Positions 5,423 through 54,765 of a DNA stretch of 64,000 nt are shown here, one piece after another. Source of the DNA: Octopus vulgaris. Taxonomy: Eukaryota. The notes under the pieces were generated by a model. That model did not search any database and was not told the DNA's origin. It saw only the letters and a list, made by a program, of their open reading frames with translations. A program made the translations under genes and the position numbers. Positions within the stretch are counted from its first letter, which is position 1, and the number at the start of each line of letters is the position of its first letter. The stretch lies in assembly GCA_951406725.2 (NCBI GenBank), contig OX597835.1, positions 47,492,001 through 47,556,000 of the forward strand. The letters run 5' to 3'.

Positions 5423-6019
5423 CGGTGTACGCATACATAAACATACTTATACATACATATATACATACCCCAATACATACACCCAGTAAAATGTGTGGTG
5501 CGTCTGTGTGCTTGCGTGTGTGTGTCCGTGTGTGTTTGAATGTGCGCGCATGTGTATTTTAGTTGCGTGTGTATGATCGTAAATGGAAAATATACTTAGT
5601 GAAACGGAAGTAATTATCAATGACAACAGATATTTCAAAAATGGCAACAAATAAATAAAATGTAAACAAATAAAGACGTGAGAAATTTGAAAAAACAAAA
5701 AAGAACAAAAGAAAAAAAAAAGACACAACAACCCGAAACAAGTAAAAACAAAACAAAAAAAAAAAGACACAGTCAGTGTGACGTGGCCAAAAAACAAACA
5801 TTGGTTAGGAAAGAATTCTCATCTGCAACAAACATGGCGTCCAGCTGGATGGTTGGATCATGTGGTCAGATCCGGCATTCTAAAGATGCATATCCGGTTT
5901 CGATTACGCGTTAAAGATGTTTCGCTTTACTTACGTTAACGTAATTTGTCTTTGCGTTAAACATAAATGTCAAATGTCGAAAATAAGAAAAAGGAAAAGT
6001 CACAAAACAAGTTTCTCTA

Positions 6020-6464
6020 ATGTATGTATGTATGTATGTATTTATATGTATGTATGTATGTATGTATGTATGCATGTATGTATGTATGTATGTATGTATG
6101 TATGTATGTATGTATGTATGTATGTATGTATGTATGTATGTATGTATGCATGTATGTATGTATGTATGCATGTACGTATGTATGTATGTATGTATGTATG
6201 TATGTATGTATGTATGTATGTATGTATGTATGTATGTATGTATGTATGTATGTATGTATGTATGTACGTATGTATGTATGTATGTATGTATGTATGTATG
6301 TATGTATGTATGTATGTATGTATGCATGTACGTATGTATGTATGTATGTATGTATGTATGTATGTATGTATGTATGTATGTATGTATGTATGTATGTATG
6401 TATGTATGTATGTATGTATGTATGTATGTATGTATGTATGTATGTATGTATGTATGTATGTATG

Positions 6465-6496
<32 letters not shown>

Positions 6497-7634
6497 TGTA
6501 TGTATGTATGTATGTATGTATGTATGTATGTATGTATGTATGTATGTATGTATGTATGTATGTATGTATGTATGTATGTATGTATGTATGTATGTATGTA
6601 TGTATGTATGTATGTATGTATGTATGTATGTATGTATGTATGTATGTATGTATGTATGTATGTATGTATGTATGTATGTATGTATGTATGTATGTATGTA
6701 TGTATGTATGTATGTATGTATGTATGTATGTATGTATGTATGTATGTATGTATGTATGTATGTATGTATGTATGTATGTATGTATGTATGTATGTATGTA
6801 TGTATGTATGTATGTATGTATGTATGTATGTATGTATGTATGTATGTATGTATGTATGTATGTATGTATGTATGTATGTATGTATGTATGTATGTATGTA
6901 TGTATGTATGTATGTATGTATGTATGTATGTATGTATGTATGTATGTATGTATGTATGTATGTATGTATGTATGTATGTATGTATGTATGTATGTATGTA
7001 TGTATGTATGTATGTATGTATGTATGTATGTATGTATGTATGTATGTATGTATGTATGTATGTATGTATGTATGTATGTATGTATGTATGTATGTATGTA
7101 TGTATGTATGTATGTATGTATGTATGTATGTATGTATGTATGTATGTATGTATGTATGTATGTATGTATGTATGTATGTATGTATGTATGTATGTATGTA
7201 TGTATGTATGTATGTATGTATGTATGTATGTATGTATGTATGTATGTATGTATGTATGTATGTATGTATGTATGTATGTATGTATGTATGTATGTATGTA
7301 TGTATGTATGTATGTATGTATGTATGTATGTATGTATGTATGTATGTATGTATGTATGTATGTATGTATGTATGTATGTATGTATGTATGTATGTATGTA
7401 TGTATGTATGTATGTATGTATGTATGTATGTATGTATGTATGTATGTATGTATGTATGTATGCATGTACGTATGTATGTATGCATGTATGTATGTATGTA
7501 TGTATGTATGTATGTATGTATGTATGTATGTATGTATGTATGTATGTATGTATGTATGTATGCATGTATGTATGTATGTATGCATGTATGTATGTATGTA
7601 TGTATGTATGTATGTATGTATGTATGTATGTATG

Positions 7635-7666
<32 letters not shown>

Positions 7667-7790
7667 TGTATGTATGTATGTATGTATGTATGTATGTATG
7701 TATGTATGTATGTATGTATATGTACGTATGTATGTATGTATGTATGTATGTATGTATGTATGTATGTATGTATGTATGTATGTATGTATT

Positions 7791-7822
<32 letters not shown>

Positions 7823-8052
7823 TGTATGTATGTATGTATGTATGTATGTATGTATGTATGTATGTATGTATGTATGTATGTATGTATGCATGCATGTATG
7901 TATGTATGTATGTATGTATGTATGTATGTATGTATGTATGTATGTATGTATGTATGTATGTATGTATGTATGTATGTATGTATGTATGTATGTATGTATG
8001 TATGTATGTATGTATGTATGTATGTATGTATGTATGTATGTATGTATGTATG

Positions 8053-8084
<32 letters not shown>

Positions 8085-8122
8085 TGTATGTATGCATGCA
8101 TGTATGTATGTATGTATGTATG

Positions 8123-8154
<32 letters not shown>

Positions 8155-8516
8155 TGTATGTATGTATGTATGCATGTATGTATGTATGTATGTATGTATG
8201 TATGTATGTATGTATGTATGTATGTATGCATGCATGTATGTATGTATGTATGCATGTATGTATGTATGTATGTATGTATGTATGTATGTATGCATGTATG
8301 TATGTATGTATGTATGTATGTATGTATGTATGTATGTATGTATGTATGTATGTATGTATGTATGTATGTATGTATGTATGTATGTATGTATGTATGTATG
8401 TATGTATGTATGTATGTATTTATATGTATGTATGCATGTATGTATGTATGTATGTATGTATGTATGTTTGTATGCATGTATGTATGTATTTATATGTATG
8501 TATGCATGTATGTATG

Positions 8517-8550
<34 letters not shown>

Positions 8551-8560
8551 TGTATGTATG

Positions 8561-8592
<32 letters not shown>

Positions 8593-8612
8593 CATGCATG
8601 TATGTATGTATT

Positions 8613-8644
<32 letters not shown>

Positions 8645-9210
8645 TGTATGTATGTATGTATGTATGTATGTATGTATGTATGTATGTATGTATGTATGTA
8701 TGTATGTATGTATGTATGTATGTATGTATGTATGTATGTATGTATGTATGTATGTATGTATGTATGCATGTATGTATGTATGTATGTATGTATGTATGTA
8801 TGTATGTATGTATGCATGCATGTATGTATGTATGTATGTATGTATGTATGTATGTATGTATGTATGTATGTATGTATGCATGCATGTATGTATGTATTTA
8901 TATGTATGTATGTATGCATGCATGTATGTATGTATTTATATGTATGTATGTATGCATGCATGTATGTATGTATGTATGTATGTATGTATGTATGTATGTA
9001 TGTATGTATGTATGTTTGTATGTATGTATGTATGTATGCATGTATGTATGTATGTATGTATGCATGCATGCATGTATGTATGTATGTATGCATGTATGTA
9101 TGTATGTATGTATGCATGTATGTATGTATGTATTTATATGTATGTATGTATGTATGCATGCATGTATGTATGTATTCATATGTATGTATGTAGGTATGTA
9201 TGTACGTATG
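6020..9210. repeat. ~3.2 kb (TATG)n tetranucleotide array
   Basis: Direct reading; source of the >1000 aa MYVC/HTYI ORFs. Confidence 0.98.
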
Positions 9211-9428
9211 TACGTGTATATATATTCAATCATAGGTTAAATTAGCTTCATTAAGGGATAGTAATATCCAATGAATTACTGATTAATTACCTAATATTTT
9301 TTCCGAATAATAATAATGGAGATATTGCATTTAAATTGTAGAGTCAATACCCAGAAGGTATTGCTATGGATTGGATTTTTGCCGACAATAAATTTTTATT
9401 ATATCCTATATCTCCTTTTCCTTAATAT

Positions 9429-47501: not shown

Positions 47502-47571
<70 letters not shown>

Positions 47572-47604
47572 TTTATTTAAAGCAGCAGAAAATTCAACAA
47601 AACC

Positions 47605-47640
47605 TGTTACTCTGAGTTTCACGTTCCCGTTCGTCGGACA
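47605..47640 (-). ncRNA. Putative minimal hammerhead, U4C variant (family C, copy 1)
   Basis: TGT CCGACGA ACG GGAA CGT GAAA CTCAGAG TA ACA: stems I, II and III all present. Confidence 0.65.
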
Positions 47641-52519: not shown

Positions 52520-52555
<36 letters not shown>

Positions 52556-52559
<4 letters not shown>

Positions 52560-52760
52560 ATCCAAACAAAAAAGCACAAAAAAACACAACAACGCGAGGA
52601 CGTGGAACAAATATAGTATTATTGGACGCTCAGGAAAGAAGGAAAGAAGGAGGGTTTAACGTTTCGAGCGGAGCTCTTCGTCGGAAACATAGGAGAGGGA
52701 AAGATCCAGAGAAGGGAAGAGAGAGGAAAAGAAATCGCCAACGGTACACAATCGGTCACA
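52556..52760 (-). mobile_element. TA-flanked hammerhead-bearing element family B, copy 1
   Basis: Close paralogue of 62212-62418; the same terminus GGATTAAC abuts (TA)n. Confidence 0.85.
52654..52688 (-). ncRNA. Putative minimal hammerhead, U4C variant (family B)
   Basis: GTTT CCGACGA A GAGC TCC GCTC GAAAC GTT AAAC; palindromic ACGT stem III. Confidence 0.65.
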
Positions 52761-52817
52761 TTTTGAAATATATATATATATATGATATGTGTGTGTGTGT
52801 GTGTATGTATGTGAGAG

Positions 52818-52900
<83 letters not shown>

Positions 52901-52907
<7 letters not shown>

Positions 52908-53349
52908 GCAAGATTTTTTATGTGAAGTCGTGTGTTGAAACAGATATTGTTATATTTCGGAATGGTCATATTGCCAGTTTAGCCAATAAAAACACACGCA
53001 CTATATATTTGGTGTTATTTTGCTTCAGTGATATTTATTTTTTACATTAATCTTAATCTTATTTCGGCCACACTAAATAAACATAGACGCACATAGAGAT
53101 ATAAGCATGCGCAAATGAAGACATACAATAGAAATACAAAATGGCTGACGGTTAGTAAGGAGAGACACAAGTAAGTGAGAAGAAAACAAAGGACCACTGA
53201 TGCGGTCACAGGAGTGTGACGAAAGAACTTTGGCCGAAATAAGATTAAGATTAATGTAAAAAATAAATATCACTGAAGCAAAATAACACCAAATATATAG
53301 TGCGTGTGTTTTTATTGGCTAAACTGGCAATATGACCATTCCGAAATAT

Positions 53350-53357
<8 letters not shown>
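52901..53357. mobile_element. TA-flanked element family D with 127-bp inverted arms
   Basis: Arms 52944-53070 and 53231-53357 appear to be exact reverse complements; 160-bp spacer. Confidence 0.9.
53194..53233 (+). ncRNA. Putative minimal hammerhead (family D)
   Basis: CCA CTGATGC G GTCAC AGGAGT GTGAC GAAAG AA CTT TGG; A9 position is C in this copy. Confidence 0.6.
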
Positions 53358-53389
<32 letters not shown>

Positions 53390-53395
53390 TCTCAC

Positions 53396-53449
<54 letters not shown>

Positions 53450-54628: not shown

Positions 54629-54765
54629 GGAGCAAACACATAAATGTGAAACAAGGTGCAAAAAAGAGTATTCACATACCAGGGGTAGAGTAATATGCTT
54701 TATTTAAAAGCAGCAGAAAATTCAACAAAACCTGTTACTCTGAGTTTCACGTTCCCGTTCGTCGG

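What the first reader, a model, noticed from the sequence alone, without database searches (positions are those of the whole stretch)
52901..53357. 127-bp inverted repeat begins exactly at a predicted hammerhead cleavage site
Seen: arms 52944-53070 and 53231-53357 are reverse complements. The spacer ends in CCA CTGATGC G GTCAC-AGGAGT-GTGAC GAAAG AA CTT, so cleavage is predicted between 53230 and 53231, the first base of the right arm. The left arm stops at the same nucleotide (..TCGGCCA|CAC) and runs out to (TA)n at 52901. Inference: the inverted copy is a cDNA of the self-cleaved 3' product, a genomic footprint of in vivo ribozyme activity and of the inversion step known from Penelope-like insertions.
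Basis: partly seen in the sequence, partly recalled or inferred. Interest (0 to 1): 0.82.

Follow-up and report, generated by a model that had tools for sequence, protein, structure and literature searches.

The report
Head-to-head Penelope retrotransposon insertion, octopus
This is one of thousands of cut-down, two-armed insertions of a Penelope-like jumping gene; its short arm ends at the predicted cut site of the element's hammerhead ribozyme, but across the genome that spot is only about 2.5-fold favoured, so this copy is more likely an ordinary short-homology join than a footprint of ribozyme cutting.

Summary
The 127-bp perfect inverted repeat and the hammerhead-like motif are real, and the left arm stops at the predicted scissile bond. 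The element is the 3' end of a Penelope-like retroelement (PLE) with at least 3,161 copies and a natural full-length copy encoding reverse transcriptase plus GIY-YIG endonuclease. Head-to-head arms in (TA)n, one arm with a 'tail', are known PLE anatomy.

Against the footprint reading: of 70 sampled copies that reach the cut site, 1 stops there and 67 run through the ribozyme. This junction has a 2-nt microhomology. The window's subfamily carries C9 and U17, and cut-site ends are not enriched in the older A9 subfamily. A second hammerhead-bearing family shows no peak (4 of 67).

For it: genome-wide the cut site holds 44-48 junctions against about 19 per neighbouring position (about 2.5-fold; 3-4% under position-to-position scatter), similar to peaks at -2, +6 and +13. 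A minor cleavage route is not excluded (about 0.25).

Side result: 108 of 112 head-to-head pairs have exactly one tailed arm, which points to two independently primed cDNAs.

The parts
52818..52899 (.). (TA)n target microsatellite, left side
   Evidence: sequence
52900..52943 (-). PLE 'tail': 44-nt extension present on the left arm only; it is the continuation of the element's ORF start
   Evidence: the same sequence follows the 5' pLTR of full-length copy L050
52944..53070 (-). left arm: inverted, 5'-truncated copy of the element 3' end, reaching at most to the first base after the predicted cut
53069..53070 (.). 2-nt microhomology (CA) shared by the end of the left arm and the family sequence at -162/-161
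53071..53230 (+). spacer: element sense strand from -160 to -1 relative to the cut; belongs to the longer right-hand copy
53191..53235 (+). type-I hammerhead-like motif: core from 53197 with C at position 9 (53203), extra G (53204), 6-bp helix II, minimal helix III, U17 (53230); predicted cut 53230/53231
   Evidence: no Rfam hit; activity untested
53231..53357 (+). right arm: element 3' end without tail; holds the first ATG of the element ORF at 53332
53358..53387 (.). (AT)n target microsatellite, right side
   Evidence: sequence

Best explanation
This is a 5'-truncated, head-to-head insertion of a high-copy Penelope-like retroelement in a (TA)n tract, likely made from two separately primed cDNAs that joined through a 2-nt microhomology, and the stop of the short arm at the predicted ribozyme cut is likely a mildly favoured joining point rather than the end of a cleaved RNA. 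Shown: family identity, two arms pointing outward into (TA)n, one arm with and one without the tail, the microhomology, scattered break points and read-through of the ribozyme in most copies. Inferred: the endonuclease cuts both strands of the (TA)n target. Each 3' end primes reverse transcription, one at the outer start site (tail) and one at the inner start site (no tail). Both cDNAs stop early, and their 3' ends anneal over a few bases and are filled in. The template is mostly uncleaved RNA.
For: Family and ORF. Read-through: of 70 copies reaching the cut, 1 stops at it, 2 stop at -4/-5 and 67 run to -35 or beyond. Junctions at 0 carry the same microhomology as others (mean 1.9 nt against 1.9-2.4; only 1 of 19 has none). 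Six of the 35 hits join at one site that offers a 3-nt match. An independent copy from another subfamily with other flanks (L189) has the identical junction. Peaks of similar height lie at +13, +6 and -2, and a microhomology-availability model correlates with the profile (r 0.51-0.56). Cut-site ends are not enriched in the A9 subfamily (11 of 29 against 28 of 94, p 0.49). A second hammerhead-bearing family shows 4 of 67 junctions at its cut against a mean of 4.8. 108 of 112 pairs have exactly one tailed arm (28 of 29 in the unbiased set), and the tailed arm is the shorter one in 50 of 78 parsed pairs, this copy included. In vitro, a PLE protein cut and extended both strands, used two start sites and did not need ribozyme cleavage (PMC11167929).
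Against: After correcting for the subfamily base at -1, the cut site holds 48 hits (44 distinct events) against 14 at -1, 36-42 at -2 and an estimated mean of 18.6. That is 2.4-2.6-fold, with a tail probability of 0.03-0.04 under the observed scatter. In a model fitted without position 0, position 0 has the highest observed/expected ratio of 44 positions (3.3; next 2.95 and 2.4). Profile counts were read by eye from the first 100 listed hits of each search. The models are crude (dispersion 2.1). The two-cDNA mechanism was not observed directly.
Confidence: 0.72

Rival explanations
1. Ribozyme footprint: a minority of transcripts self-cleave, reverse transcriptase runs off the cleaved 5' end, and the cDNA's last bases anneal to the partner cDNA. 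This copy would be one such event.
For: About 2.5-fold excess of junctions at the cut and the top residual in the fitted model. The microhomology here lies inside the 3' product, as run-off predicts. Two unchecked earlier notes report a similar over-use in other genomes.
Against: Even if the whole excess came from cleavage, only about 60% of cut-site ends would be due to it. There is no enrichment in the A9 subfamily and no peak in the second family. The window copy has C9 and U17 and a non-palindromic loop 3. Position -2 is nearly as high and needs a template that passes the cut. PMC11167929 found no RNA-seq reads starting or ending at the cut in the anole PLE.
Confidence: 0.2
2. Fold-back self-priming of one cDNA: a single cDNA runs to -160, folds onto itself at the cut-site bases and copies itself (proposed for palindromic junctions in PMC3846280, there on an antisense template).
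For: 9 of 78 parsed pairs are near-perfect palindromes. Both arms of this copy are 100% identical.
Against: The shorter arm here carries 44 nt of tail that the longer arm lacks, so it cannot be a simple copy of it. The same holds for 50 of 78 pairs (sample enriched for junctions near the ribozyme).
Confidence: 0.06
3. Assembly artefact or later rearrangement between two neighbouring copies.
For: The region is rich in microsatellites, and no read or contig spanning the whole junction was seen.
Against: The same architecture recurs in 112 held pairs with a fixed tail rule, and an independent locus has the same junction.
Confidence: 0.02

Closest known systems
Insertion architecture of endonuclease-bearing Penelope-like elements (PMC3846280; PMC8557442)
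   Same: pLTR-ORF-pLTR parent, heavy 5' truncation, an adjacent inverted 5'-truncated copy, a tail on one end that includes the first codons of the ORF, (TA)n targets, microhomology at junctions.
   Different: The tail here is about 55 nt rather than 30-40 (44 nt kept in this copy). The one-tailed-arm rule is counted here (108 of 112); the passages I read state it only in words.
Minimal type-I hammerheads of metazoan PLE pLTRs (PMC4209133)
   Same: [quoted passage not shown]
   Different: Position 9 is C in the two younger subfamilies and position 17 is U in the youngest; loop 3 is not palindromic, which would weaken the dimer form (inference).
Poseidon element of the green anole studied in vitro (PMC11167929)
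   Same: Tail matching two reverse-transcription start sites near the ORF start; AT-rich target; ribozyme close to the start codon.
   Different: This element has a CX4CxxC motif before the GIY-YIG domain (Neptune/Nematis type) and its ORF starts about 100 nt after the cut rather than before it. No biochemistry exists for this element.
L1 twin priming (recalled, not from a call)
   Same: Two primers from the two target strands, with an inversion joined through microhomology.
   Different: Here both arms start at the element's 3' end and overlap in sequence; in L1 the second primer starts internally and the pieces do not overlap.

Membership tests
EN+ Penelope-like element | single ORF with RT and C-terminal GIY-YIG endonuclease | tested here: met
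   L050 1710-5648(-), 1312 aa stop to stop. Pfam RVT_1 E 1.4e-3 and GIY-YIG E 4.7e-4 in that order, both below Pfam's cut-offs; the whole ORF alone gave no hit at E 0.01
EN+ Penelope-like element | pseudo-LTRs flanking the ORF in partial tandem | tested here: met
   same ribozyme-bearing repeat on both sides of the L050 ORF
EN+ Penelope-like element | inverted 5'-truncated copy and optional one-sided tail | tested here: met
   108 of 112 pairs; window copy
EN+ Penelope-like element | RT groups with PLE/telomerase RTs in a tree | not tested
   no named reference sequences were on hand; 196 unnamed homologues found
Neptune/Nematis clades | CX2-5CxxC linker before GIY-YIG | tested here: met
   CX4CxxC read in the L050 translation; definition from PMC8557442 passages; the two clades were not told apart
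Type-I hammerhead ribozyme | helices I, II and III around the core | tested here: inconclusive
   helices I and II form in the predicted fold, helix III does not; z -0.96; no Rfam hit
Type-I hammerhead ribozyme | consensus core C3 U4 G5 A6 N7 G8 A9, G12 A13 A14 A15, U16 H17 (PMC3088659) | tested here: not met
   C at position 9 in this copy and in 93 of 105 held copies; A9 in 11 older copies
Type-I hammerhead ribozyme | self-cleavage after H17 | not testable with these tools
   no assay and no raw RNA reads available
Non-LTR retrozyme | tandem non-coding units each with a type-I hammerhead | tested here: not met
   the locus is one inverted pair derived from a coding PLE; definition from 10.64898/2026.07.22.740005 part 1

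The most novel reading that the evidence does not exclude
The 2.5-fold excess of junctions at the scissile bond (roughly 1 copy in 100) is a genomic record that a PLE hammerhead cleaves a minority of transcripts in the germline and that cleaved RNA is used as a template. Together with the near-absolute one-tailed-arm rule, it would mean each two-armed insertion is made by a pair of enzymes starting at two different sites, one of which can run off a ribozyme-cut end.
Probability: 0.25. Interest if true: 0.6.

Novelty: new member of a known kind. Interest (0 to 1): 0.3.

Why it matters
The role of hammerheads in Penelope-like elements is open: PMC4209133 notes the lack of in vivo evidence, and PMC11167929 found cleavage unnecessary in vitro. 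A clear pile of insertion ends at the cut would settle part of it. This genome gives only a weak signal in one family and none in a second. It also shows a lineage that kept expanding while its core drifted from A9/C17 to C9/U17, which suggests cleavage is dispensable. The more solid by-product is the tail rule (108 of 112 pairs), a count that supports two-site, two-strand priming and can be tested with the existing in vitro system.

Tried and rejected
Rfam scans: only microsatellite-driven miRNA hits and no hammerhead.

DNA search of the own genome: empty because the words are too common; replaced by pattern searches.

my filter was placed one position off and passed the consensus. It served only as a copy count (9,455) and an unbiased view (0 of 100 listed copies of the second family begin at its cut). 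Repeated correctly.

My first reading, that -2 clearly outnumbers the cut site (55 against 34), was partly wrong. The base at -1 differs by subfamily, and 13 of the '-2' hits and 1 of the '-1' hits really end at the cut.

Sequencing runs: no RNA holder listed. Contigs of three runs guessed to be RNA bridge the cut, but contigs cannot show RNA ends and the run type is a guess, so this is not used as evidence.

Subfamily contrast C17 against U17 in cut-site ends: p 0.06-0.10 and confounded, because an A after the cut looks templated in U17 arms; not used.

Inverted duplication of flanks as a general feature: 2 of 99 pairs against 0.5% in shuffled pairs; rejected as a rule.

Literature: a search for Penelope + hammerhead + truncated + twin priming gave 0 papers; searches showed no title on junction counts around the PLE cut site. 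The library lacks most subscription papers, and supplements were not read.

Full report
Observation. The arms 52944-53070 and 53231-53357 are 127 nt, 100% complementary and 160 nt apart. A hammerhead pattern scan of the window gave 4 hits; one predicts a cut between 53230 and 53231, the first base of the right arm. The left arm runs 44 nt further into (TA)n. Rfam does not recognise the motif. Helices I and II form in the predicted fold, helix III does not, and the z-score is -0.96. Below, position 0 is the first base after the predicted cut.

What it is. A 26-nt anchor from the arm occurs 3,161 times in the 2.8-Gb genome. One copy (L050) is full length: a 1312-aa stop-to-stop frame between two copies of the ribozyme-bearing repeat. 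[quoted passage not shown] Its best protein hit is 99% identical and labelled Octopus vulgaris by the source. The arm is the end of the pseudo-LTR plus the first codons of the ORF, and the 44 extra bases on the left arm are the PLE tail. Inverted 5'-truncated copies, a one-sided tail and (TA)n targets are described for PLEs (PMC3846280 and PMC8557442, passages found by term). The window copy is therefore two outward-pointing 3' fragments: a long one from -160 without tail and a short one from 0 with tail.

The junction. The family sequence before -160 ends in CA, as does the left arm, so the two share a 2-nt microhomology. A second locus, L189, has the same junction but belongs to another subfamily and has other flanks, so this join arose twice.

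Unbiased sample. I fetched all of the first 100 listed anchor hits; 98 could be parsed. 5' ends range from +85 to -4516. Twenty-eight start downstream of the cut (two more were poly-A length artefacts that continue upstream). Of the 70 that reach the cut, 1 stops at it, 2 stop at -4/-5 and 67 run to -35 or beyond. Cleaved RNA is thus not the usual template.

Junction profile. Three pattern searches selected copies that leave the family sequence within +18..+6 (242 hits), +5..-9 (362 hits) and -9..-25 (222 hits). I classed listed hits by eye: the first 100 and the first 74, dropping 23, 14 and 10 internal indels. A script check was run on the 30 loci held for each. Over one common genomic interval, 190 junctions fall on 44 positions (mean 4.3, variance 12.3). 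The highest are +13 (15), -2 (13), +6 (12) and 0 (11).

Exact counts and a correction. Exact searches gave 35 hits ending at 0 (1 indel), 22 at -1 (7 indels) and 67 at -2 (12 indels). The base at -1 differs between subfamilies, so some '-1' and '-2' arms do not match their own template there. After calling the subfamily for all 22 and all 67 hits, the cut site holds 48 hits (44 events, since five share one duplicated junction), -1 holds 14 and -2 holds 36-42. The mean for that window is about 18.6, estimated as 77% of 362 over 15 positions. The cut site is thus 2.4-2.6-fold favoured, with a tail probability of 0.03-0.04 under the scatter between positions.

Tests specific to cleavage. Three subfamilies can be told apart: A9/C17 (mean 90% identity to L050, 10 copies), C9/C17 (96%, 27) and C9/U17 (99.7%, 66), the last including the window copy. 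A9 is part of the consensus core (PMC3088659, passage), and the extra base between 9 and 10.1 is normal for PLE hammerheads (PMC4209133, parts 1-2 of 4), so C9 is a true core change. If cleavage made the cut-site ends, the A9 subfamily should be enriched among them; it is not (11 of 29 against 28 of 94, p 0.49, before the correction above). Microhomology at cut-site junctions matches that at other positions (mean 1.9 nt). A second hammerhead-bearing family in the window, with at least 9,455 copies and A9 intact, has 4 of 67 junctions at its cut against a mean of 4.8 (first 100 of 719 hits, 33 indels dropped). In vitro work on an anole PLE found ribozyme cleavage unnecessary for insertion and no RNA-seq reads ending at the cut (PMC11167929, parts 1-2 of 4).

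Mechanism. Of 112 distinct head-to-head pairs held, 108 have exactly one tailed arm; in the unbiased set it is 28 of 29, where half would be expected. The tailed arm is the shorter in 50, the longer in 19 and equal in 9 of 78 parsed pairs (21 of 99 not classed; sample enriched near the ribozyme). A short arm that carries sequence the long arm lacks cannot be a fold-back copy of it, so two separately primed cDNAs are likely. This fits the in vitro picture of a predicted dimer that cuts and extends both strands and has two start sites (PMC11167929). These steps are inferred, not observed.

Verdict. The coincidence with the cut is most likely a mildly favoured join (0.72); run-off from a cleaved RNA is possible for this copy (0.2). 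Even if the whole excess were due to cleavage, about 40% of cut-site ends would still be background, so one copy cannot be a proof. My searches showed no paper that counts junctions around a PLE cut site; the library is incomplete and I read no supplements. Two earlier AI notes on other genomes report a similar mild excess; they are unchecked and I did not test them.

Noticed in passing
window 52802-52816 and 53390-53404: A 15-nt flank motif beyond the (TA)n tracts is itself inverted on the two sides; it occurs only here in 929 kb of held DNA. One other pair (L101) has an inverted flank duplication of over 80 nt; 2 of 99 pairs in all.
   Followed up: partly
window 52536-52770 (-), cut predicted at 52657: 5'-truncated end of a different hammerhead-bearing repeat family, with a C3-C4 core variant, between (TA)n tracts.
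   Followed up: no
window 54629-54765 (-) and around 47570-47640 (-): Two copies of a third hammerhead-bearing family (at least 9,455 copies). Both window copies begin just 5' of helix I, and many genomic copies form short head-to-head pairs whose centre lies near the ribozyme.
   Followed up: partly
family-wide, e.g. L139, L147, L219 against L050: Stepwise drift of the ribozyme core with subfamily age, A9/C17 to C9/C17 to C9/U17, while the youngest subfamily is 99.7% identical to the full-length copy.
   Followed up: partly
L050:1710-5648 (-): Full-length PLE ORF with a long Asn-rich stretch before the RT domain; Asn-rich inserts are described in rotifer Penelope ORFs (PMC3846280), there at other positions.
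   Followed up: no
C1 copies starting at +78 to +85: 17 of 98 copies start in this 8-nt stretch next to the anchor, many joined to a tail-only inverted arm through a T-run match: a far stronger hotspot than the cut site.
   Followed up: no
L219, L309-L312: One junction repeated at five places (near the start of C7, three on C31, one on C49), probably by segmental duplication.
   Followed up: no
window 6000-9300: Long strand-skewed (TATG)n-type satellite (GC skew up to 0.92) that causes false miRNA hits in Rfam.
   Followed up: no
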